A DNA stretch of 64,000 nt from Leptolyngbyaceae cyanobacterium (GCA_965263355.1 CBDHHL010000056.1:96001-160000), one strand, 5' to 3'; counted from the stretch's first letter, positions 20,427 to 44,033 are shown. Made by a program: numbers and translations. Notes: generated by a model from the sequence alone, not told the origin.

Positions 20427-21098
20427 TCAAACTAACGTAGTCTCCAAGAGAGCAGACGAGTGTGCTACCCAACCCAGTACCCCTCCCTCTGATTGCAGGA
20501 TATGGACCGTGGCATCATGATCCCTGGCATCGAAAGCAGCACAGCAATCATCCAATAGCAGGCAGTAATACCCCAAATCACTAGCATGGCGATAGGTAGC
20601 TAAAACACAACATTGGGTGGTCACGCCACTAATCAAAAGGTGAGTGATATTATCAGCGTGTAATCGTTGATCAAGGCAGGTATTTACAAAGCAAGAGTGA
20701 GCCGGTTTATCGAGTTGTTCCTCTTCAGACACCGGTTGTAACTCATCAATAATGGCAGCCCCAAGCTCCCCTTGCACGAGAAACCGACCCATTTTGCCCG
20801 CCTGACCAATGGGTGATCCGGCATTGGCATAGCGGATTTTTTTGCTGGGTGATAAATCCGATAGGTCCGGCACATGGCTTTCTCGAGTAAAGATAACCTT
20901 AAGTCCGATTTGTCTGGCCCAGGCCACTAAGGATTGAACCGCAGGTATAATCGCGCGAACAGCTGTCATATCAAGCCCTAACTCACTACCATTGAACCCA
21001 TCAGGATGGCAAAAGTCATTTTGCATATCAATAACCAGTAAGGCTGTTTGGTCAAGCGGCAGATCGAATGAATGGGTATAGGTATTGACTACAACCAT
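20427..21098 (-). CDS. Isochorismatase-like cysteine hydrolase, biuret/guanylurea hydrolase subgroup
   Basis: IDMQNDFC, TRE.H.PDLSD, G.MGRFLV.GE.G, DKP, GVTT.CCV, EGGVLG. Asp-Lys-Cys triad present. Confidence 0.8.
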   Translation of the reverse strand: MVVVNTYTHSFDLPLDQTALLVIDMQNDFCHPDGFNGSELGLDMTAVRAIIPAVQSLVAWARQIGLKVIFTRESHVPDLSDLSPSKKIRYANAGSPIGQAGKMGRFLVQGELGAAIIDELQPVSEEEQLDKPAHSCFVNTCLDQRLHADNITHLLISGVTTQCCVLATYRHASDLGYYCLLLDDCCAAFDARDHDATVHILQSEGGVLGWVAHSSALLETTLV

Positions 21099-26823: not shown

Positions 26824-27519
26824 TCAAAGCTTAATTTTAGGGTAAACGGAGGCTAGCTTACAGCGAGCATCATCGACCTGCATCTGCCAGTCAACTCCCC
26901 GTTGCCTGTTGTTGATATCGTTCGACCAAGCTGTCGTTTCAGCCCGTAGCGTATCGATGTCTTCAAAGCGTCTACCATCAATGCACTGTCGAGTCATTGC
27001 ACTCACATCATTTTCTGCGATGTTGAGCCAACTGCCATGCTTCGGGGTATAACAAAATTCGATTCGCTGCACCAATTTTCGCGCTCGTTCAGGCTCGAAT
27101 GCTTCGTAAAAAGCCCCTTTGGTGTGTGTATTGAGATTGTCACACACCAATCGTACTTTCTCGCAATCGGCATAGCGGTTTTCCAGTATGTCAGCCACTT
27201 CAAGCGCCCAATCCACTTTGGTGCGACTCGGACGTACGCTCACTTGCCGCCAACCGGCTAACGGCTCAGTAAACATGAAAATACTCGCGGTCCCGGCCCG
27301 TTCATACTCATAGTCCACCCGTTTGCCATGGTTAGCCGTGGCCGGAAGCGGGGGACGACTCTCTCGTTGAAATTGAACGGGTTGTTCATCCATGCAAATC
27401 GTCGGACGGGTTGGGTCGTAAGGCTGGGCATAGACATCAAGCACCGCTTCCATGTGAGCCACAAATTCAGCATCGGTCTCAGGGGGAATCACCCAGTACT
27501 CTATCTTGCGATTGGTCAT
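26824..27519 (-). CDS. IS630 transposase, DDE catalytic part (ORF B)
   Basis: CMDEQP, DYEYER.G, LVCDNLNTH, YTPKHGSWLNIAE. Confidence 0.9.
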   Translation of the reverse strand: MTNRKIEYWVIPPETDAEFVAHMEAVLDVYAQPYDPTRPTICMDEQPVQFQRESRPPLPATANHGKRVDYEYERAGTASIFMFTEPLAGWRQVSVRPSRTKVDWALEVADILENRYADCEKVRLVCDNLNTHTKGAFYEAFEPERARKLVQRIEFCYTPKHGSWLNIAENDVSAMTRQCIDGRRFEDIDTLRAETTAWSNDINNRQRGVDWQMQVDDARCKLASVYPKIKL

Positions 27520-27959
27520 GCCATTTTTTTCAGAGTCTGTCGCACCGTCTCATGGCTGACCGTGTCAACCAGACCCAATTCAACCACCTTACGAGCTAGC
27601 AAACGCAATGACCAATTGGCATACCCGGCGGGAGGGGCTCCTAATCGCAGGGCAATCACCTGGGCTTCCTGCTCGCCATCAAGGAGCTTATCCGTGGGGG
27701 GACGGCGTCGCTTCGCACCATTAAGAGTTACCGCAAACCCTTGCTCAACCAAGCGGCGGCGAATATTCTCCACGGTCTTTGTTCGACAGTCAAACGCATC
27801 GGCGATCTCCTGGTCAGTCCAGTTCGATCCATCGGCATCCGCTTTCAGTAAAATCTGAGCGCGACGCACTTTCTGGCTGCTGCCCTTCAGCTTTTTGATC
27901 ACCGCTTGTAACTGATGGCGCTCATCGGGAGTTAGACGGACAATATACTTTTTCTGCAT
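27516..27959 (-). CDS. IS630 transposase, HTH part (ORF A), likely joined to ORF B by a frameshift at an A7 run
   Basis: KKYIVRLT, RRAQILLKAD, PP.GYANWSLRLLA, SHETVRQTLKK; minus-strand CTGAAAAAAATGG at the ORF junction. Confidence 0.88.
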   Translation of the reverse strand: MQKKYIVRLTPDERHQLQAVIKKLKGSSQKVRRAQILLKADADGSNWTDQEIADAFDCRTKTVENIRRRLVEQGFAVTLNGAKRRRPPTDKLLDGEQEAQVIALRLGAPPAGYANWSLRLLARKVVELGLVDTVSHETVRQTLKKMA

Positions 27960-34789: not shown

Positions 34790-36094
34790 ATGAACCTCAC
34801 CCTTCATAACACCCTGACAGGCCGAAAGGAGCCATTTGTCTCTATTCATCCGGAACAAGTGGTGATGTATTGCTGTGGTGTGACGGTCTATGACCATTGC
34901 CACTTAGGGCATGCTCGTTCATACATGGGTTGGGATGTGTTGCGACGTTATTTGCAGTGGTGTGGATACACAGTGCGCTATGTGCAGAACTTTACAGATA
35001 TTGACGACAAGATTCTCAATCGTGCCAAGGTAGAAGGGGTAACGATGCAGGAGGTGAGCGATCGCTACATTGCTGCCTATTTTCAAGATATTCGCCGACT
35101 CAATATTCTCGATGCCGATGACTACCCTCGTGTGACAGAGCACATCCCTGCCATTCATCAATTGATCCAGGCACTAGAACAGCAAGGATACGCCTATGCG
35201 ATCGATGGTGATGTTTACTACAGCGTGCGGCAGTTCGAAGAGTATGGCAAGCTCTCTGGACGGAAGCTGGAGCAACTGCAGGCGGGTGCCGGGGGACGGG
35301 TTGCTCCTGATGCTCCAGGCCAAAAGAAGCGCGATCCGTTCGACTTTGCTCTATGGAAATCGGCAAAACCGGGTGAACCTGCCTGGGAGTCGCCTTGGGG
35401 AATGGGACGACCAGGGTGGCACATTGAATGCTCGGCCATGATTCGGGCGCGATTGGGCGAAACCATTGACATTCACGGTGGGGGAGGCGATCTGGTGTTT
35501 CCCCACCATGAAAACGAGATTGCTCAATCAGAAGCGGTAACTGGACAACCGCTAGCGCGTTACTGGCTGCACAATGGGATGGTGACGGTGAATGGGGAAA
35601 AAATGTCGAAATCCCTGGGCAATTTCACTACGATCCGGGACCTGCTGGATGGGGTGTGGGCAGAATATCCGCAACCGATAGACCCGATGGCGGTGCGACT
35701 GTTTGTGCTGCAGGGGCATTATCGGAAACCGTTGGATTTTACGAAGGATGCGATCTCAGCTGCGGTCAACGGTTGGCAAACGCTAAAAGCTGGACTTCTC
35801 TTTGGCAACCATCATCAAGCCGCATTGGCATGGCCAGACATCCAGTCTTTCCCACAGGAACCCAGCTCAGAAGACCCGTGGGTCAAACGGTTCCAAGCCG
35901 CCATGGACGATGATCTGAATACATCAGGTGCTCTGGCGGTGCTGTTTGAGCTGGCCAAAGGGCTGCAGCGAGAGGGGAATCGTCTGGTGCACGAAGGGCA
36001 GACTCAAGTCAGTCCGGAGCTGCTTTGGCAGCAGTGGCAAACTTTGGTGTATCTGGCTCAGGTTGTGGGGTTAGAGTTCGATATATTTACCTAA
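34790..36094 (+). CDS. cysS: Cysteine--tRNA ligase paralog lacking the C-terminal anticodon-binding region
   Basis: [42 protein letters not shown]. Ends at ..GLEFDIFT (434 aa). Confidence 0.85.
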
Positions 36095-36526
36095 TTTGAG
36101 TGTATTATGTGGACAACTTGCAGCCTATCCACCTGACTTGGCGAGATATACTGCGAAGAATCAATATATTCACCCTGTTTCAGGCAGATAGACTGAAACT
36201 ATCAGTCTAATAAGAGTTAGCTGGCTTTACTTCTATGCGTGTAGAGTTCTGCTAAGTTACTTGAGAGGGACTAATCAGTTACTCCTTAGCGCGCCAAACT
36301 TTGACTATGCATTCTAGATTTAAAGAAGATTTAAACAACTAAGTAGGTGGCCAAAACTATTCAATATCCCGAATACTGCCAGATAGGCAGCTTAGCGATT
36401 CAGAGCTACGTTTACTTATGGCACCTACTTAAGATGTTGAGGCAACATATAATTTGAAAGCCTTACTTAACTTAGGGTTAGGAGTTGATAGAAGAACCGA
36501 GTCCAATAACTAAGTAAAATATTTTT

Positions 36527-37348
36527 ATGGCATTTATCCTCGATCTTGAGCCACTACGTCAAAAACTAGCTATAGGAACTAATTTAAGGGTACTTCGGAA
36601 GGAATGGATGGCTTACCTAGCTTTCTATCTCAAGCCTTACCCTCCTGAGCAGATACGTATTGTCCTATTTGCTCAGGGTCGTACAGGTAGCACACTCCTT
36701 GAAAATCTAACTTGCTCGACAAACAAGTTTCAAGAAAATGGGGAACTACTCTCTTGGCGTAATAGTCCATTTAAACGGAGATTTCTTCTGCCATATCAGT
36801 ATGTTTGCGGCCTTGCTAAACTTTCAAAAAAGAATTTCATATTTCATGTGAAGCTTTATCATCTTACTGAAGAGCAGAAAATCGAGCCATCATTTTTTTT
36901 ACAGAAACTAGCCGAGGCAAGATGGAAGATAATTTATTTACATAGAGAGAATAGAGTTATGCATGTAATATCTAATCTTTTGGCCAAGAAACGTAAGGGT
37001 TACCATAAGTTTAAAGACGACGAAGAAGACTTACGCATAAAAGTTGATCTTAGTCATTTTGTTGCAGGGATTAACAAAAGGGAAAGATACTTTCAGGAGG
37101 AACAAGAATGTCTAAAATCTTTAGAGCATATTGAAATTGTCTATGAAAGAGATCTAAAGGATAGCTCATCACATCAGGAAACAGCTAATAAGATTTTTGA
37201 CTTTCTCGGGATAAGTCATCAGAATGTCAATACAAAACTAAGAAAAATAAATACGCAGTCACTAAAAGATATTGTGATTAACTATAGTGAATTTAGACAA
37301 TGTATTTTCGATAATGGATGGGATATGTTCCTAGAGGAGGAAAGATAA
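36527..37348 (+). CDS. Sulfotransferase (Stf0/NodH-like)
   Basis: GRTGSTLL 5'-PSB loop, GELL, IIYLHREN...ISN 3'-PB motif, YE.DL. Confidence 0.75.
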   Translation: MAFILDLEPLRQKLAIGTNLRVLRKEWMAYLAFYLKPYPPEQIRIVLFAQGRTGSTLLENLTCSTNKFQENGELLSWRNSPFKRRFLLPYQYVCGLAKLSKKNFIFHVKLYHLTEEQKIEPSFFLQKLAEARWKIIYLHRENRVMHVISNLLAKKRKGYHKFKDDEEDLRIKVDLSHFVAGINKRERYFQEEQECLKSLEHIEIVYERDLKDSSSHQETANKIFDFLGISHQNVNTKLRKINTQSLKDIVINYSEFRQCIFDNGWDMFLEEER

Positions 37349-37549
37349 TCTAAACTTCATAAAATATGATTTATCTTCTGATGTGTGGACGTTGATTTTT
37401 TTTAAGTTTCTAACAAGAACATTTGGGATTCAAGAGTAACGAAATATAATAACCCCTAAACTGAAAGTATGTGGAAGACGCTACATCTCTATGATTTTAT
37501 GCTACATATTAAACTTAGCGAGGTGTAGGCGAGAAACTGAATCTTATAA

Positions 37550-37750
37550 CGGCTGGTTAGACCAATATGTTCTCCAATGATCCTTGGTGTAAGTGGACCA
37601 TCTTCCAAAAGATTAAGCGATCGCAAATCATTGCGGTGTATGCCGAAGTGTTCGGAAATTGCATAGTCAATCGCATTGCAGGCCGCATGGATCCTTCGGC
37701 CTGCAATGATTAAGGTTTCGAGGTTTTTACTGTCATTCAAAATATTTGCC
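37550..37750 (-). pseudogene. Truncated MarR family regulator fragment
   Basis: AIDYAISEHFGIHRNDLRSLNLLEDGPLTP..IGEHIGLTS, after which homology is lost. Confidence 0.55.
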
Positions 37751-37856
37751 TTGACGATCAAGATTCTTTGGGCTCTACTTGTATCAAGTATGGACAACTT
37801 GCATTAAGGAATGGGTGTCAAGATATAGCCGTCATCAATCTTGAATGGAGAAATAA

Positions 37857-38120
37857 ATGGGAATTGTTCTGTCTGGGGTGATCTGGCTCGTCGTTTTATT
37901 ACTCATGCTAGTGATCTTTCTGCCTAATGCTGTCCGAGATTCAGAGAAGATTGTTGTTAACGTCCCAGCCGAGCAAGTGTATGACAATATCCGATGGCAA
38001 GCGAGACTGATGCAATGGTCTCCATGGCCTGAAGCAACTGGCTCAACCTGTTCGGTCGAGAATACGGATGGGAGAGTTGGTGCCCGGACTATCTTTTCAA
38101 GGTTTGAAAACTTATTCTGA
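37857..38120 (+). pseudogene. Truncated SRPBCC/polyketide cyclase-like fragment
   Basis: Signal-like N-terminus, IVVNVPAEQVYD...WSPW, G.VGA; stops early at 87 aa. Confidence 0.55.
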
Positions 38121-38193
38121 ATTACGAAAAGCCCTGTAATGTGCTGGTTTCTTGTTGATCGTTTTTTGATGAAGGGTTAGTGATTTGAGTGAG

Positions 38194-38277
38194 ATCTAAC
38201 AATGCCCATACACTCGATCGAGAGGTTTTCAGTGAGCATTCAAGGTCATTTACGGTGGTTAATGGTCAACGTTAGGC
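38194..38277 (+). other. attC-like integron recombination site (degenerate)
   Basis: R'' atctaac (38194-38200), inner ccat../..atgg arms, R' gttaggc (38271-38277, GTTRRRY). Confidence 0.55.
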
Positions 38278-38370
38278 AATTCATTTTGTCTGGTTTTTCA
38301 AATACCTAAGGAAACTACTTGCCTAGCGATGTACTGATAAGGTAATAATCAAGACAGATAAGGAGGCTAC

Positions 38371-39225
38371 TTGAACAGTTCACTTCGTGTATGGTTAGGC
38401 GCTAAGAAACGTCGAATGAAAAATATCGTCGGGTTGCCTCGCCAAAAAACTTCATCGCCTCCTCCACCGCCCCCAGGACATGTGATTGGTGCGCCTGACT
38501 TTGTCGGCATCGGAGCGCAAAAATCGGGGACCTCGTGGTGGTATCACGTACTAACAGCTCACCAAGGAGTTTATCACCCGTCCTGGATGGACAAATACGT
38601 CCATCCATCCTATCTAAACAAGGAACGTCACTTTTTTGATAGCTTCGCGGAACGCTCTTGGGATCCAAGCCACATTGAAGAGTATCACGCTTGGTTTCCC
38701 CGCCCTGCCGACACTATTACTGGGGAATGGACACCTCGATATCTTTGTGACTTCTGGACCCCACCACTCTTGAAGCAAGCGGCACCTGAAGCCCGAATTC
38801 TTGTCATGCTGCGAGATCCCGTCCAGCGGTTCTTCTCGGGACTTCAACACTCACAGCGTGGCAGTGAGAGATTGACACTGGATAAGTTTAACGAACACGC
38901 AGCACGTGGGCTGTACAGCCAAGGTCTTCACTACTGGTTGAATTGGTTCGACCCCGCTCAGATTCTCGTACTTCAGTACGAGCGTTGCATAGCTGACCCA
39001 ATGCCACAACTTGTCCGCACCTGTAACTTCCTCGGGTTAGATACTACATCACTTAAGGCGTGCGAGAAACGCTTCGGCCTTCGAATCAATGCAGGTCTGC
39101 CAAAGTCAGTATCGCTAAAGTCACATTTGGTCGAGCCCCTTAGAGAGTACTATCGAGCCGATATCCTCAGTTTGGTCGAGTCTTTCCCATCCATTGATCC
39201 AACTCTGTGGCTGGAATCCCGTTAA
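38371..39225 (+). CDS. Sulfotransferase (Sulfotransfer_1/3 family)
   Basis: PDFVGIGAQKSGTS, KE.HFFD, GEWTP.Y, LRDPV.RF.S, RG.Y. The start may be ATG 38416. Confidence 0.85.
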   Translation: MNSSLRVWLGAKKRRMKNIVGLPRQKTSSPPPPPPGHVIGAPDFVGIGAQKSGTSWWYHVLTAHQGVYHPSWMDKYVHPSYLNKERHFFDSFAERSWDPSHIEEYHAWFPRPADTITGEWTPRYLCDFWTPPLLKQAAPEARILVMLRDPVQRFFSGLQHSQRGSERLTLDKFNEHAARGLYSQGLHYWLNWFDPAQILVLQYERCIADPMPQLVRTCNFLGLDTTSLKACEKRFGLRINAGLPKSVSLKSHLVEPLREYYRADILSLVESFPSIDPTLWLESR

Positions 39226-39372
39226 CGATGAATTAGCCCTCAAAGGAGTACTTTGTAAGTCAAACCGAGAAAATTTTCGATTATCTATCTTGGCGATGAT
39301 GATGAGTGAATGGCCTCCTCTAGAAAGTTGGTTTCAGTAGATTCCTTCTAGGAAATTAAGAGAGCTTTAGAT

Positions 39373-39933
39373 ATGAAAAAAAAATCTAAACCAAAGATAT
39401 TTAGTAAGTGCAAGTTTGTACTACTTATCCTGCTATTAATCATGGGATTGACTATACCCTACGGTCTTAAATTTTTATCGCCTCGTTTGGAGCCTTATCC
39501 AGCAATTATTTTTCCTGCTGGATCCGGAACGGTTAGACAGTCTGAGGGTAAGTTTAGATTTAGAACTATTAATATTTACTGCCTTGATTTATCGACGGAG
39601 GAGTGGATGAAACAAGACACATCTAGCTTCTTATCACCAATTCCTCGTCGGTATTTTAGCGCTATCGTAAAGAATGAATTTGGGCTAAACCCTAATTTAA
39701 AGCATACGGTAAAGTTTAGAAAAAACATTTTTCCGAGCTTTACTTATATGAACTCTAATGCTTTGGATGCAGCAAACATAGACCGTACTAAAGCGTGGCT
39801 TAGAGGTAAGCTTCTAAAACATGGGTGCAAAGATGACTCCTTGTTAATAAGAACAACACTGATGTCAGCGAATTTAAAAACTAAAGTGGTTTCTGAAATT
39901 AAGATTATGGATGAACAACTCTTTAAGTTATGA
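39373..39933 (+). CDS. Hypothetical membrane-anchored protein (partner of the HTTM-like gene)
   Basis: N-terminal TM, LEPYPAIIFP; ATGA overlap with the next gene. Confidence 0.65.
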   Translation: MKKKSKPKIFSKCKFVLLILLLIMGLTIPYGLKFLSPRLEPYPAIIFPAGSGTVRQSEGKFRFRTINIYCLDLSTEEWMKQDTSSFLSPIPRRYFSAIVKNEFGLNPNLKHTVKFRKNIFPSFTYMNSNALDAANIDRTKAWLRGKLLKHGCKDDSLLIRTTLMSANLKTKVVSEIKIMDEQLFKL

Positions 39934-41051
39934 AAAGCCCTGTTCTATTTGCTGAAAAAATCATCAAGAAGATCCTTACAAGAATTCAGAGATCAGTCCC
40001 CATCCCCGAATGGCATTCATCAATTTTCCGAATATTTCTTGGGATATACATTCTTCTTTTTTCCATTTCCGAATTTGGATGGATAAATGACGTTCCTAAA
40101 AGTTTATTTAACCCTCCTCTTATTAGCTTGTCTAGATTATTTTCTGGTTTTCCGTCTGGAATTCTATTTTATCTAAACATTCTGATTGTCTTGTTTGCAG
40201 TATTCATCACATTAGGTATTCGTTCACGAGCTTCAAGTCTTACCTTTGTCGTAATTAATATATTTGGCGATTCATTCATATATAGTTTTGGCAAAATAGA
40301 TCATGGCGGAGTCATGCTGATAGCGACTCTTGTTTGCTTCTCATTTTCAAATTGGGGAACTAAGAATGCTCTCATCCCAGATAAGTATTGCCCATATCAC
40401 AAACTCTCTAGTGTGCTACTAGCCATATTATTGGCATTTGGGATGTTTACAGCAGGATTTGAAAAGCTCATATTCTGGGTAGATTTTGACTTAAGCACTA
40501 ACGGGTTTTTAAGCTGGTTCTACCCTGGATACTTTAATTTGGGTAAGCAAGAACTTTTGGCTAATTTAGTCTTCTATCTTCCTACACCATTTCTAGAGAT
40601 ACTTGATTATTCCGCTGTCATATTTGAACTAGCACCCTTTTTATGCTTGATAGCTGGTGCCCGCTTTTGGAAGTCTTGGCTCTTACTAGCTTGTGTATTT
40701 CATCTAGCGAACGCATGTCTCTTAAATATTACGTTTCTTAACCACCTTCCAATATATTGTGCTTTCTTTCTGTATCCAACGCTAGATCGAGCAAAGCTTG
40801 AGAAGACTATGCAAATGAAGAGGCTGATAAGGTTTACTTATATTTTAGCTATTTTATTAGGTGCCATGCATATTGCTCTTCGGCTTAGGGGGGATGGTGT
40901 TGCCTCTCTTTTAATATCTGCCGATGGTATCTCAAAACTTTGGTTCTCTTTAATCCTTTGGCCTGGAGCAATTATTCTAGGTTTTCTTGGCTTATTTTCT
41001 CACCACAGAAAACCTTTTAACCTCTTCAACTTGAACCATGAGAAATCATGA
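39930..41051 (+). CDS. HTTM-like multi-pass membrane protein
   Basis: FRIFLG, LG..SR, YSFGKIDH, F.AG..K, FE, FHL.N motifs. Confidence 0.6.
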   Translation: MKSPVLFAEKIIKKILTRIQRSVPIPEWHSSIFRIFLGIYILLFSISEFGWINDVPKSLFNPPLISLSRLFSGFPSGILFYLNILIVLFAVFITLGIRSRASSLTFVVINIFGDSFIYSFGKIDHGGVMLIATLVCFSFSNWGTKNALIPDKYCPYHKLSSVLLAILLAFGMFTAGFEKLIFWVDFDLSTNGFLSWFYPGYFNLGKQELLANLVFYLPTPFLEILDYSAVIFELAPFLCLIAGARFWKSWLLLACVFHLANACLLNITFLNHLPIYCAFFLYPTLDRAKLEKTMQMKRLIRFTYILAILLGAMHIALRLRGDGVASLLISADGISKLWFSLILWPGAIILGFLGLFSHHRKPFNLFNLNHEKS

Positions 41052-41331
41052 ATGTTGTCTAACATAGTCCCTGAGGCGGACGAGGTCAATAGCAAAGGCT
41101 AAACTTCTTTTTCTAGTTAAGCTTGAGTCTGTATTCAGACATGCAGGATTAACCTGATACTCAGTTGTTCAGGGAGGAGATTGTTCTCTCTCAGAGAGGG
41201 CTGCTTTGCTGTATGACCGTGAATACGGGTTAGCTGTTCATCGGATATTGCTCCAAGTGATTACATCGAGTGCTCGATCTTGTTGTTGTAGTTGTAGTAG
41301 TTGTTGTTATCTGCCTTTAAAGTATTACTTG

Positions 41332-42675
41332 TTATTTTTGTGATTGTTGTTTAGGTTGTTGTTGAACGCCCAATAACTTTGCTAGTGGGGACTTTTTGCG
41401 TCTCAGTACAGCTATGTATTTTTCTTCATCATAAGGGACACCATCTTGCCAACAGCGCCAGAGAATTCTTCCCCACTTATAGGCCAAGGCACGAATCGCT
41501 TTAGGATGACTTTTACCTGATTGCTTCTGCTGTAGATAAAAGGCTTGGGACCAAGTCGAATGTCGACGCGCTTGATCGACCCATTCAACAAAGGTTTGTC
41601 TGAGGAAAATTGGACATGACCAACGCCAATGAACCCAGCACTTTTTGCCGCTTTCCTCCTTGACAGGGGCAATACCGATATAGCTCATAAAGGCCTGAGC
41701 CGACGTAAAGCGCGTGCGGTCTTCGCCAAAGGCGACTAACAGTCGTGGCGCTAGATGCGGTCCGGCTCCCGGTAAGGCCTGAAATAACTCGGCATCTGGC
41801 AATGACTCAAACAGGTTAGCAATCTGTTGGTTAAATTCAGTTAATTGTTGTAAAACAACCTTAAGCAGAGTGATTAGACTTAAAGTCAGTGTTTTAGCCG
41901 GTATCACAATGGCGTCATCCTCAGTCAGCGGTGGGCCTGCGTCTTTGATTTGCTGAATCCTACGCTGAATCGTCGTCCGTCGAACAACATGATGGCGATG
42001 GAAAAACTGAGTGATTGTTTCAGGGGTTGCTGCTTGGGCCGCTTTGACATCGTCGAACTGCTCAATAAACTCACAAAAGACCTGCGTATCTTTATCTCTA
42101 AACCAATCAAGAACTTGAGGAAAATAGGATTTGAGTGATGCGGTGATACGGTTAGTCAAACGCACCTTTTCGCCCACTAACATCCGACGCGATTCTACCC
42201 ATTGTCTGAGGGCACGATGTTCAGGGCACCCTGCCACCCAAGCCTTTAGTTTATTGCCATGCTTACGCATTAACTCCACCAGAATACGGGCATCTACGGG
42301 GTCGGATTTGGCTCGTGATGGCTGAAACGCTTTTCGATAGTTGGCCACCGTTCTGGGATTAATGGGAAACAGCACTAAATTGTCATACTGACACAGCGCA
42401 TAGAGTAGAGGCCCTCGCTGTTGTTCAAGAGCAACCGCAATTTTGCCAGGACCATACCGTTCTCGGAGTTGTGTGACCCAATCCAGAATAGCTTGAGGAT
42501 GGTTTTGAATAATACTATTTTTCCAGGTGTCTGTTGCACAGTCATATACCGCAATGTCATTTTTTCGGTCAGCCCAGTCAATGCCCACATAGGCCACATA
42601 GTCAATCGACTCGATGGCCTTAGGCATAGGTGTTTCTGAAGCTGAGTCTGTAGTTATGGTTGGGGCTATTGTCAT
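41332..42675 (-). CDS. IS110 family recombinase/transposase
   Basis: GIDWAD, ALE, KSDPVDA (DEDD RuvC-like); LPGAG, GIAP..ESG (Tnp domain Ser); A.RALA.K. Confidence 0.95.
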   Translation of the reverse strand: MTIAPTITTDSASETPMPKAIESIDYVAYVGIDWADRKNDIAVYDCATDTWKNSIIQNHPQAILDWVTQLRERYGPGKIAVALEQQRGPLLYALCQYDNLVLFPINPRTVANYRKAFQPSRAKSDPVDARILVELMRKHGNKLKAWVAGCPEHRALRQWVESRRMLVGEKVRLTNRITASLKSYFPQVLDWFRDKDTQVFCEFIEQFDDVKAAQAATPETITQFFHRHHVVRRTTIQRRIQQIKDAGPPLTEDDAIVIPAKTLTLSLITLLKVVLQQLTEFNQQIANLFESLPDAELFQALPGAGPHLAPRLLVAFGEDRTRFTSAQAFMSYIGIAPVKEESGKKCWVHWRWSCPIFLRQTFVEWVDQARRHSTWSQAFYLQQKQSGKSHPKAIRALAYKWGRILWRCWQDGVPYDEEKYIAVLRRKKSPLAKLLGVQQQPKQQSQK

Positions 42676-42721
42676 TGTGTTAGATTAGAAGCCAATTTGT
42701 TTAACAGGGGTACGTCTGCTA

Positions 42722-42990
42722 CCTACTTGAAGAGCGAAAAGATTATGGAAGCGATTGAATCCCCTTCCCTGAGAGTTCGTTTAAGACAAGTAGGACAAAG
42801 ACCAGAGGCGAGGCGATATGTTAGTAGTCATTGACTGACGTGCGTTGGATAGTCGTCCTCTAGTCCTAGCAGACAAGCCCCATTTTTTGACTTTACGCTT
42901 TTCTTGACAGTTGGGATGAGTGAAGATGAGGAGCGATGCGATATGTTAGTAGACATGCAGGCTGTCGCTCGTTGCATAGTCGTCTCCTCG
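42722..42990 (-). ncRNA. Candidate bridge RNA: target loop 1 (42928-42989), target loop 2 (42804-42861), donor loop (42722-42794)
   Basis: Three stem/internal-loop modules whose guide segments match the empty attC target and the end-to-end donor junction. Confidence 0.75.
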
Positions 42991-43175
42991 GTTCGTCCCC
43001 CCATAACCCGTTGGGGCGGACGTATAAAAGGCGTCGCAAGTACTGTACAAGATATCGGTCGCCGCTCAACTTAGCCGTTAGTTGGGTATGGGTCTGGGTA
43101 TGGAGTTACGAATCGTAATGAGATTAGCTTCTGGGTTAGAGATCGTTGATTTTCATCTTTGACGCTGAGGGTGGA

Positions 43176-43206
43176 TAACATAGCCTCTGAGGCAGATGAG
43201 GGCAAT
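43176..43206 (+). mobile_element. Relic of a related IS110 end at a second TAACATAG site
   Basis: taacatag|cctctgaggcagatgagggcaat versus taacatag|tccctgaggcggacgaggtcaat (18/23 identical after the junction). Confidence 0.55.
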
Positions 43207-43216
43207 TTCACACTGC

Positions 43217-43253
43217 TTGACAGCTTCCTTTCCCGTGATTACATTGTAATTAC
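43217..43253 (+). promoter_or_regulatory. Sigma70-type promoter and palindromic operator of the TA operon
   Basis: TTGACA (43217)-17 nt-TACATT (43240), overlapped by the palindrome gtgattac-att-gtaattac. Confidence 0.65.
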
Positions 43254-43281
43254 ATTTTCCTGTTCGCAAGTATCTAATTCT

Positions 43282-43542
43282 ATGGGCACAATTGTCAGAA
43301 CTCGGATCGTTAAAATTGGCAATTCTCAAGGCATTCGTATTCCTAAGCTCCTCTTGGAGCAAAGTGGTATTCATGAAGACGTTGAGATTGAAGTACAGGG
43401 TGATTGTCTGACTATTCGCAAAGCACAATGTTGGCGTGCCGGATGGGATGAGGCCTTTGCTGCAATGGCTGAGAATCAAGATGATGTACTTCTAGATGAC
43501 GTCAACACTACTGACTGGGATCAATCTGACTGGGAATGGTAG
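43282..43542 (+). CDS. AbrB/MazE family antitoxin
   Basis: IVKIGNSQGIRIPK.LL, acidic C-terminal DW..EW. ATG at 43282. Confidence 0.92.
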   Translation: MGTIVRTRIVKIGNSQGIRIPKLLLEQSGIHEDVEIEVQGDCLTIRKAQCWRAGWDEAFAAMAENQDDVLLDDVNTTDWDQSDWEW

Positions 43543-43859
43543 TCAAGCGTTTCGATGTTTTTCTGGTCAACCTAGACCCCACTGTTGGCAGTGAAATTCA
43601 GAAAACACGCCCCTGTGTTGTTATATCACCGGATGAGATGAACCGTTATATCGCTAAGGTTATCATTGCTCCAATGACTACGAAAGGTAAGCAATATCCC
43701 ACTCGTGTTGTCTGTCAATTTCAGGGCAAAAATGGGCAAATCGTTTTAGACCAAATCCGCACAGTAGATAAAAATAGATTGGACAAAAAGATTGGCCAAA
43801 TCAGTCAAGATGAGCAAAAAATGCTTCTTGCGACCTTAGCTGAGATGTTTGCTGAATAG
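43536..43859 (+). CDS. PemK/MazF family endoribonuclease toxin
   Basis: V.LDPT.GSEI.KTRPCVVISP, APMT, DQIRTVDK.RL. Confidence 0.93.
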   Translation: MVVKRFDVFLVNLDPTVGSEIQKTRPCVVISPDEMNRYIAKVIIAPMTTKGKQYPTRVVCQFQGKNGQIVLDQIRTVDKNRLDKKIGQISQDEQKMLLATLAEMFAE

Positions 43860-44033
43860 GTTTCCTAATAAGGGCTTGCAACGGAACGGAGATATAAATT
43901 CAGAGAAGTAGGATGCGCGCTGCTCACAGCAAGCTATGACAATATTTAACCTCTTATTTTTCTGAGATTCAGCTGTTTTTTTACAATTTTATAACTCACA
44001 ATTTTAAAGAAAAAGATGTGAGAATTATCCCTT

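What the first reader, a model, noticed from the sequence alone, without database searches (positions are those of the whole stretch)
41057..43083. IS110 with an apparent dual-target bridge RNA programmed against integron attC sites
Seen: the ~330-nt region upstream of the IS110 recombinase holds three stem/internal-loop modules. Read on the minus (gene) strand, loop 1 (42989-42928) carries tgcaacga...ctaacatatc and loop 2 (42861-42804) carries tccaacgc...ctaacatatc. Under IS621-type geometry (left guide = left arm, right guide = reverse complement of the right arm) they specify ctaacatatcgttgca and ctaacata(g/t)cgttgga on the + strand. Deleting 41068-43008 recreates ctaacatagcgttggg, the R''-spacer-L'' of an attC, matching loop 2 at 7/8 and 9/10. 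Loop 3 (42794-42722, closed by cctacttg/caagtagg) contains tccctgag (42766-42773), identical to the element end 41068-41075, and agattatgg (42740-42748), the reverse complement of the junction ccataacc|t at 8/9. That is a donor-binding loop. Established: IS110 bridge RNAs described to my knowledge have one target loop and one donor loop, and attC-targeting IS1111-group elements exist. Inference: a naturally duplicated target loop widens specificity to two attC variants, giving a three-loop RNA-guided recombinase.
Basis: partly seen in the sequence, partly recalled or inferred. Interest (0 to 1): 0.93.

Follow-up and report, generated by a model that had tools for sequence, protein, structure and literature searches.

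The report
Bridge RNA with two target loops
A cyanobacterial jumping gene of the IS110 family carries a guide RNA with two target-reading loops instead of the usual one, and its relatives appear to use both loops to choose integron-type hairpin sites.

Summary

**Conservation.** Every close cyanobacterial relative found has the same layout: two target-binding-type loops (M1, M2) plus one donor loop (M3). These relatives form one recombinase clade. Sister elements have one target loop.

**Guide use.** In 40 independent insertions, the left guide of M1 matches its own insertion site far better than shuffled pairings do (p<1e-4). M2 adds a weaker signal (p 0.007-0.05; one unconditional test gave p 0.21). 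Two 97.7%-identical copies sit at an M1-type and an M2-type site.

**Targets.** They are about 88-nt attC-like hairpins, but the window holds no integrase.

**Corrections.** Uninterrupted copies of the target show that the element is 41065-43005 (±1). This insertion cannot be assigned to one loop (6 against 5 matches).

**Not shown.** There is no RNA evidence. 12 of 40 sites match neither guide.

**Verdict.** My searches found nothing like it in print.

The parts
41057..41064 (+). Right half of the target. It is the attC R'' core GTCTAAC plus A. On the gene strand it reads T|GTTAGAC.
   Evidence: Natural uninterrupted copies end ...T|GTTAGnn.
41065..43005 (-). IS110-family element, 1941 bp. 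It could equally be 41064-43004, because one T is shared by both junctions.
   Evidence: Occupied sites compared with uninterrupted sites. Copies diverge at 43008.
41065..41075 (-). Right-end terminus ...CTCAGGGACTA. CTCAGGGA (41068-41075) is the left donor arm, identical to the left arm of M3.
   Evidence: It is conserved at the right end of relatives.
41084..41089 (-). TTGACC, a -35-like hexamer 16 nt from CAGGGA. A circle junction would place it 17 nt from a TATGGG-type hexamer.
   Evidence: TTGACC-17-TATGTT in the integrated state. TTGAC is conserved in the right ends of relatives. The junction promoter is inferred by analogy with IS621.
41078..41083 (-). Sub-terminal inverted repeat, right-end arm (TCGTCC on the gene strand).
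   Evidence: Read. It pairs with 42993-42998.
41332..42675 (-). Recombinase gene, 447 aa, intact.
   Evidence: Pfam DEDD_Tnp_IS110 (E 4e-26) and Transposase_20 (E 4.5e-16). It aligns to IS621 over both domains (E 7e-13), including GIDWA, SDPVDA and ESG.
42707..42721 (-). 3' arm of a long-range stem that encloses M2 and M3.
   Evidence: (I8). In the alignment the stem has compensatory changes, for example GC 10 / AU 10 at one pair.
42722..42794 (-). M3, the donor-binding loop. The left arm holds CTCAGGGA (42766-42773). The right arm CCATAATCT (42740-42748) is the reverse complement of the left-end start TTATGG.
   Evidence: Both arms are nearly invariant in 28 sequences.
42805..42860 (-). M2, the second target-type loop. 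Left guide 42840-42851 (core TCCAACGCAC), inner hairpin 42827-42839, right guide 42812-42826 (CTAACATATCG).
42867..42881 (-). 5' arm of the long-range stem.
   Evidence: (I8).
42928..42989 (-). M1, the first target-type loop. Left guide 42967-42978 (core TGCAACGAGC), inner hairpin 42952-42966, right guide 42937-42951 (CTAACATATCG).
42990..43005 (-). Left-end terminus TATGGGGGGACGAACC. It holds the right donor arm and the left-end arm of the sub-terminal repeat (GGACGA, 42993-42998).
   Evidence: TATGGrrGAC is conserved at the left end of 46 elements.
43006..43083 (+). Remainder of the interrupted attC-like site: spacer, L'' GTTGGGG, central part, L' CTCAAC and R' GTTAGTT (43077-43083).
   Evidence: The rebuilt site is 87 nt.

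Best explanation
An active-looking IS110-family insertion sequence sits in the R''-L'' spacer of an attC-like hairpin. Its left end encodes a roughly 300-nt bridge RNA with three loops.

**Donor loop.** M3 reads the element's own joined ends: CTCAGGGA of the right end and TTATGG of the left end.

**Target loops.** M1 and M2 are two alternative target-binding loops. They share the same right guide, which pairs with the constant GTTAG end of the hairpin plus an NT core. Their left guides differ and read the variable L'' arm. Either loop can bring a target to the recombinase, so one element can enter two classes of hairpin.

**Shown:**
- the anatomy;
- its conservation and single origin;
- donor-arm identity;
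- the fit of the M1 guide to insertion sites.

**Supported but weaker:** use of M2.

**Inferred:**
- one transcript from a promoter formed at the circle junction;
- binding by the recombinase;
- the exact cleavage positions.
For: **Architecture**
- Two target-type modules lie between the left end and the donor loop in 38 loci (31 distinct sequences). One module lies there in 8 loci. Eleven further two-module copies came from two genomes.
- RNAalifold on 28 sequences predicts 46 pairs, 17 with compensatory changes. It recovers the stems of both modules and a long stem around M2 and M3.
- In both modules the stems (0.17-0.30 bits) and right guide (0.24 and 0.43 bits) are constant. Left-guide positions 5-10 reach 1.0-1.8 bits, as variable as the linker.
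- On a quick recombinase tree the two-module elements form one group with 100 SH-aLRT support and a stem length of 0.7. It holds 29 labelled rows and 3 unlabelled ones, two of which show both modules. One-module cyanobacterial and proteobacterial elements lie outside.

**Guide-to-site fit, 40 unique insertions**
- M1 against its own flank versus shuffled pairings: p<3e-5 in all three scores.
- M2, unconditional: p 0.003 (local segment), 0.0014 (exact run), 0.21 (Hamming).
- Gain from the element's own M2 beyond its own M1: p 0.007, 0.011 and 0.049.
- Assignment: 17 to M1, 11 to M2, 12 to neither.
- L082 and L107 are 97.7% identical over 1850 nt and carry the same guides. L107 sits at TGCATTGGG (9 of 9 with M1). 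L082 sits at TGCAGCGC (8 of 8 with M2).
- Rare guides match rare sites: L019 M2, 9 of 9; L085 M1, 7 of 7.

**Geometry and enzyme**
- The loop geometry agrees with IS621 (passages).
- The recombinase has both domains and the aligned catalytic motifs.
Against: - The case for M2 depends on the score used. The register-restricted Hamming test is not significant unconditionally (p 0.14 with n=32; p 0.21 with n=40).
- 12 of 40 sites match neither guide with a score of 6 or more. These include 2 of the 6 unique sites of the eight-copy genome G044.
- The distance between the left-guide match and the crossover varies by 0-2 nt. IS621 has a fixed register.
- The window's own site fits M2 at 6 and M1 at 5, which decides nothing.
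- The donor arms never vary, so they give identity but no covariation.
- No Rfam family matched.
Confidence: 0.65

Rival explanations
1. Only M1 guides insertion. M2 is kept as scaffold inside the long stem, for folding or protein binding. Its left arm drifts among common hairpin-like words, which produces chance matches.
For: M1 carries most of the signal: 17 against 11 assignments, and p<3e-5 against 0.003-0.21. The unconditional Hamming test for M2 is not significant.
Against: - The element's own M2 adds fit beyond M1 in all three scores (p 0.007-0.049).
- L082 and L019 have 8- and 9-nt exact M2 matches while their M1 guides score 4.
- The M2 right guide is conserved like that of M1, which a mere scaffold would not need.
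Confidence: 0.2
2. The two loops divide the work. M1, which lies outside the long stem, is released as a target-loop-only RNA. M2 and M3, inside the stem, form the complete bridge RNA. The two RNAs then act in different steps or pathways, as proposed for CazIS110-1.
For: - M1 lies 5' of a conserved A-rich linker and outside the stem that encloses M2 and M3.
- A preprint reports abundant TBL-only RNA that supports one transfer step (abstract and section 8).
Against: - No RNA ends are known here.
- Both loops' guides fit final insertion sites, which simple alternative use also explains.
- This rival does not contradict dual targeting. It refines it.
Confidence: 0.1
3. One of the two loops is an inert leftover of a duplication or of a nested insertion.
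For: M1 and M2 are clearly paralogous. Some copies carry insertions in one loop: L016 in M1, and L083/L101 in M2.
Against: - Both loops are retained throughout a clade with path lengths up to about 0.9 changes per site.
- Their stems show compensatory changes.
- The pattern of constant scaffold with a variable guide holds in both loops.
Confidence: 0.04

Closest known systems
IS621 bridge RNA (IS110 group). Sources: Durrant et al. 2024, PMC11208160, and Hiraizumi et al. 2024, PMC11208158; passages read.
   Same: - The RNA is encoded in the left end, upstream of a DEDD/Ser recombinase.
- Its internal loops have a left guide equal to the top strand of the left arm and a right guide complementary to the right arm.
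- A few guide bases beyond the core fit the partner DNA, like handshake guides.
- The core ends in T.
- A -35 element sits in the right end.
   Different: - It has two target loops instead of one.
- A long stem encloses the second target loop and the donor loop.
- The RNA is about 300 nt.
- Left-guide pairing stops about 2 nt before the core, and its register varies by 0-2 nt.
- The target is a structured attC-like hairpin.
- The recombinase is only distantly related (E 7e-13).
IS1111-attC group (ISKpn4, ISPst6, ISPa25) and their seekRNA. Source: Siddiquee et al. 2024, PMC11187229, passages read. Tetu & Holmes 2008 and Post & Hall 2009 were seen only as references.
   Same: These are IS110-superfamily elements that insert at one end of attC sites in a fixed orientation, guided by a short RNA with two target matches.
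   Different: - Their guide RNA lies downstream of the gene. Here it lies upstream.
- They have one target specificity.
- Their hosts are proteobacteria. Here they are cyanobacteria.
- The sub-terminal repeat here is short, 6-8 bp.
CazIS110-1 target-loop-only RNA. Source: Sun et al. 2025 preprint, 10.1101/2025.10.25.684509; abstract and section 8 read.
   Same: A second RNA species that carries only a target loop works beside the full bridge RNA.
   Different: There it is a truncated product with the same loop and the same guide. Here it would be a separately encoded loop with a different left guide.
ISPpu10 target stem-loop gate. Source: Na et al. 2026 preprint, 10.64898/2026.03.19.712850; abstract only.
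   Same: An IS110 element whose target lies in a conserved DNA hairpin.
   Different: It has a single target loop. Whether hairpin structure matters for the element here was not tested.

Membership tests
IS110 family (DEDD recombinase elements) | The recombinase has a RuvC-like DEDD domain followed by a Tnp domain. | tested here: met
   PF01548 scores 92 bits and PF02371 scores 59 bits, both above their cut-offs.
IS110 family (DEDD recombinase elements) | Catalytic acidic residues and the Tnp serine are present. | tested here: met
   In the alignment to IS621 (8wt6), GIDWA, ALEQ, SDPVDA and ESGK stand opposite GIDTA, IEAT, TDTVDA and ESGS. That these motifs hold the catalytic residues is recalled, not computed.
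IS110 family (DEDD recombinase elements) | Site-specific insertion without long terminal inverted repeats or a long target duplication. | tested here: met
   Occupied and uninterrupted sites differ by the element alone, with one ambiguous T. The sub-terminal repeat is only 6-8 bp.
Bridge RNA of the IS110 group | A structured non-coding region lies in the left end, upstream of the gene. | tested here: met
   The left end is 330 nt. The consensus fold has 46 pairs, 17 with compensatory changes.
Bridge RNA of the IS110 group | The guides of the target loop covary with the insertion site. | tested here: met
   M1: p<3e-5 in three scores, n=40.
Bridge RNA of the IS110 group | The same test applied to the second target-type loop (M2). 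| tested here: inconclusive
   Unconditional p is 0.003, 0.0014 and 0.21. Conditional gain p is 0.007, 0.011 and 0.049.
Bridge RNA of the IS110 group | The arms of the donor loop match the element's two ends. | tested here: met
   CTCAGGGA matches the right end. The reverse complement of CCATAA(TC) matches the left-end start. Both are conserved in all 46 elements with a left-end anchor. They are invariant, so no covariation is possible.
Bridge RNA of the IS110 group | Exactly one target loop and one donor loop. | tested here: not met
   There are two target-type loops in every member of the clade.
Bridge RNA of the IS110 group | The RNA is transcribed and bound by the recombinase. | not testable with these tools
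   This needs small-RNA or RIP sequencing, or an assay.
IS1111 group / IS1111-attC | The guide RNA lies in the long right end, downstream of the gene. | tested here: not met
   All three loops lie upstream of the gene.
IS1111 group / IS1111-attC | Sub-terminal inverted repeats of 7-17 bp. | tested here: inconclusive
   GGACGA/TCGTCC is 6 bp, or 7 of 8 when extended. Only about 5 bp is conserved in relatives.
Integron attC site (the target) | R''/R' cores RYYYAAC and GTTRRRY at the two ends, with a total length of 57-141 nt. | tested here: met
   GTCTAAC ... GTTAGTT, 87 nt when rebuilt. 22 of 39 flanks have NNYTAAC 55-129 nt upstream under a strict motif, and others have RTAAC.
Integron attC site (the target) | Paired L boxes with extra unpaired bases on one arm and an unpaired spacer. 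| tested here: met
   These features were seen by eye in uninterrupted copies L140-L159 and in the folds. The window's own rebuilt site folds no better than shuffles (z about 0).
Integron attC site (the target) | The site lies in a cassette array next to an integron integrase. | tested here: inconclusive
   - None of the 58 window ORFs scanned matches an integrase.
- A second attC-like site lies at 38197-38275.
- In 1 of 5 relatives' genomes the element lies about 0.6 kb from an IntI fragment. Another of the five has a full IntI elsewhere.
- Uninterrupted copies are dispersed.
Integron attC site (the target) | Recognition by the attC covariance model of IntegronFinder. | not testable with these tools
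   That model is not held here.

The most novel reading that the evidence does not exclude
In IS621 the target loop and the donor loop of one synapse come from two different RNA molecules. A second, independently programmed target loop could therefore do more than widen the insertion range. It could let the recombinase pair two different attC hairpins with each other. That would delete, invert or shuffle gene cassettes without the integron integrase, a natural multiplexed RNA-guided recombinase acting on the integron's own sites.
Probability: 0.07. Interest if true: 0.9.

Novelty: new variant of a known kind. Interest (0 to 1): 0.75.

Why it matters
Bridge RNAs are described as bispecific, with one loop for the target and one for the donor. 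A conserved natural form with two target loops sharing one donor loop would show that the scaffold tolerates multiplexing. It would also show that evolution uses this to follow a family of variable sites, where the R'' end is constant and the L'' arm varies.

- **For genome engineering:** it offers a natural template for one RNA that addresses two targets.
- **For integron biology:** it adds a left-end-guided, cyanobacterial counterpart to the IS1111-attC elements.
- **For mechanism:** it supplies a set of natural guide-target pairs, with a flexible register, on which rules of recognition at structured DNA can be tested.

Tried and rejected
- **Whole genome:** none is held for the window, so other copies in the organism could not be read.
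- **Rfam:** at E up to 1 over 40500-43600 there was one chance snoRNA hit only.
- **RNA runs:** no RNA holder is listed. The laid runs are contigs and showed no joint, neither an empty site nor a circle.
- **Plasmids:** the blastn of the RNA region found no match. The protein search found only relatives below 60% identity.
- **More copies:** the pattern search in five relatives' genomes found none beyond those already held.
- **attC scan:** a strict scan of the window (R''/R' complementary at 6 of 7 or better) missed the site itself and returned unrelated palindromes.
- **Core:** I tried GA, CT, TAT and TATG as candidate cores by comparing junctions. None fitted all loci. The uninterrupted copies then settled the crossover to within one T.
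- **Site near 20433:** its likeness to the right-end junction overlaps a gene start and needs gaps, so I treat it as chance.
- **Our earlier findings:** searches by place and by sequence returned nothing for this stretch.

Full report
**What is there**

The minus strand of 41332-42675 encodes an intact 447-aa protein with the two IS110 domains. It aligns to the IS621 recombinase over both domains, including the motifs GIDWA, SDPVDA and ESG.

- M1 (42989-42928) and M2 (42860-42805) are diverged tandem copies.
- Each has a left arm after GACGAC, a short inner hairpin, and the right arm ACTAACATATCG.
- M3 (42794-42722) has CTCAGGGA in its left arm and CCATAATCT in its right arm.
- The single-sequence fold recovers M2, M3 and a long stem around them (42881-42867 with 42721-42707), with z -2.43.

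**Relatives**

A protein-based scan of species genomes gave 80 loci. A DNA pattern for the donor loop gave 36 metagenome loci.
- The distance from the left-end motif TATGG to the donor loop falls in two classes. It is 220-255 nt (333 in L016, which carries a 99-nt insertion) in 38 loci, or 31 distinct sequences, with two target-type modules. It is 137-141 nt in 8 loci, with one module.
- Proteobacterial relatives at 40-50% identity also have one target-type loop.
- In an alignment of 28 two-module sequences, RNAalifold predicts 46 pairs, 17 with compensatory changes. It finds the stems of both modules and a long-range stem around M2 and M3.
- In both modules the stems and right guide are nearly constant, while left-guide positions 5-10 are as variable as the linker.
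- A quick maximum-likelihood tree (the careful search did not finish) puts all two-module elements in one group with 100 support on a long stem. One-module cyanobacterial elements are sister to it and proteobacterial ones lie outside. Three rows in that group carried no label because my left-end motif failed. Two of them (L003, L004) show both modules. L105 was not checked.

**Do the guides track the sites?**

IS621 geometry says that the left guide equals the top strand of the left target arm, and that the right guide is complementary to the right arm (passages).

I compared the 10-nt left-guide core of each module with the 18-24 nt upstream of the left end.
- The first set had 32 unique insertions.
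- The second set had 40, after adding an eight-copy genome and a three-copy genome.
- With n=40, M1 beats shuffled pairings at p<3e-5 in all three scores.
- With n=40, M2 gives p 0.003 (local segment), 0.0014 (longest exact run) and 0.21 (register-restricted Hamming).
- The fairer test for an either-or model keeps each element's M1 and flank together and permutes M2. The gain from the element's own M2 then has p 0.007, 0.011 and 0.049.
- By local score, 17 sites go to M1, 11 to M2 and 12 to neither.

The clearest single case is L082 and L107. They are 97.7% identical over 1850 nt and carry the same two guides. L107 lies at an exact 9-nt match to M1, and L082 at an exact 8-nt match to M2. L019 (M2, 9 of 9) and L085 (M1, 7 of 7) pair rare guides with rare sites.

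Against this reading:
- Two of the six unique sites in G044 match neither guide. That genome also shows swapped flanks, which point to later rearrangement.
- The window's own site fits M2 at 6 and M1 at 5, so it cannot be assigned.
- A near-identical copy in another organism's contigs sits beside a ...GCAACGCA left arm, which fits both guides at 7 of 8 (read by eye).

**The target and the boundaries**

Rebuilt sites are about 87-92 nt. They have YTAAC at one end and GTTAG at the other, paired inner boxes with extra bases on one arm, and an unpaired spacer.

I searched the flank of L009 in 41 related genomes. Its last 70 nt hit dozens of dispersed, uninterrupted copies of the same kind of hairpin. 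Twenty were fetched. On the gene strand they end ...GAATT|GTTAG...GGGGTT|GTTAG or ...GCAGT|GTTAG.

Set beside occupied sites, such as L095 with ...GAAT|TATGG at the left and GGGACTA|TGTTAG at the right, they place the crossover at T|GTTAG with one ambiguous T.
- In the window the element is therefore 41065-43005 (or 41064-43004).
- The empty site is GTCTAAC-AACCC-GTTGGGG.
- Independently, contigs of the organism's own run and of another organism part from the window at 43008, and three different right-end contexts share CTAACATAG.

With the corrected frame:
- the right guide reads AT-AT-GTTAG in reverse complement (two handshake-like bases, a two-base core, five target bases);
- the donor right arm reads GA-TT-ATGG;
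- the donor core is AT and target cores are TT, GT or AT, so the core is NT as in IS621;
- the 8-nt left donor match ends 4 nt before the crossover. The commonest register of left target matches is the same, but offsets of 0-2 occur. This flexibility is unexplained.

**Is it an integron site?**

The anatomy fits attC. The context is mixed.
- None of the 58 window ORFs scanned is an integrase.
- A second attC-like site lies at 38197-38275.
- In one of five relatives' genomes the element lies about 0.6 kb from an IntI fragment, and another has a complete IntI elsewhere.

I call the target attC-like.

**Expression**

The right end carries a conserved TTGAC 16-17 nt from its tip. A circle would place it before a TATGGG-type hexamer, as described for IS621. 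This is inference.

**Literature**

Six searches found no paper that describes a bridge or seek RNA with two target loops.
- I read passages of Durrant 2024, Hiraizumi 2024 and Siddiquee 2024.
- I read passages and section 2.4 of the 2026 language-model survey of 32,190 bridge RNAs.
- I read the abstract of Na 2026.
- I read the abstract and one section of Sun 2025.
- Figures and supplements were not seen. Durrant's Extended Data Fig. 10 and Supplementary Table 5, and the survey's Fig. S12, could hold such a structure.

**Verdict**

This is a real, conserved three-loop bridge RNA. M1 is a working target loop with high confidence. M2 probably is as well. The finding is a new variant of a known kind.

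Noticed in passing
window 43176-43206: An 84% copy of the 31 nt that span the R'' core and the element's right-end tip (41060-41090), without any element attached. It looks like the footprint of a related element. A promoter-like TTGACA-17-TACATT (43217-43245) and a MazE/MazF-like gene pair follow.
   Followed up: partly
window 38197-38275: A second, uninterrupted attC-like hairpin (ATCTAAC ... GTTAGGC) between small ORFs. On the gene strand its left arm reads TGTATGGGCATT, a class matched by the M1 guides of other elements but not by this element's guides.
   Followed up: partly
window 41061-41089, minus strand: In the integrated state the right end forms a promoter-like TTGACC-17-TATGTT. It points out of the element, antisense to the upstream ORF 39930-41051.
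   Followed up: no
L036:1087-1150: A one-loop relative ends directly against the reverse complement of another copy's target-loop DNA, at the right-guide word ATATGTTAG. This looks like an insertion guided by a half-site match into a sister element.
   Followed up: no
L016 (M1 right arm); L083 and L101 (M2 3' stem): L016 has a 99-nt insertion with inverted ends, MITE-like, splitting CTAACATAT in M1. L083 and L101 have a 25-nt insertion in M2. These are the only disrupted loops among the 31 distinct sequences.
   Followed up: no
G001:C1 751494-752060 and 1521605-1522105 (L122, L118): The two halves of an integron integrase gene lie about 770 kb apart. The C-terminal half is about 0.6 kb from the element's right end, which suggests a rearrangement through the integron.
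   Followed up: no
L160-L167 (G044): There are eight copies of one two-loop element in a complete genome. Three share at least 110 nt of left flank, which indicates a segmental duplication. L165 shares its right flank with L161 and L163, so flanks have been exchanged between copies.
   Followed up: partly
window 26824-27959, minus strand: A second, unrelated transposase in two overlapping ORFs (HTH domains followed by DDE_3).
   Followed up: no
window 41271-41364: Runs of TTG/TTGTAG repeats cover the 3' end of the recombinase gene and the DNA just downstream of it, giving the protein a low-complexity tail that IS621 lacks.
   Followed up: no
window 36000-44000: A low-GC island (0.38-0.45, against about 0.49 around it) directly after the cysteinyl-tRNA synthetase gene. 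It holds sulfotransferase genes, ORFs without a family, the element and the toxin-antitoxin pair.
   Followed up: no
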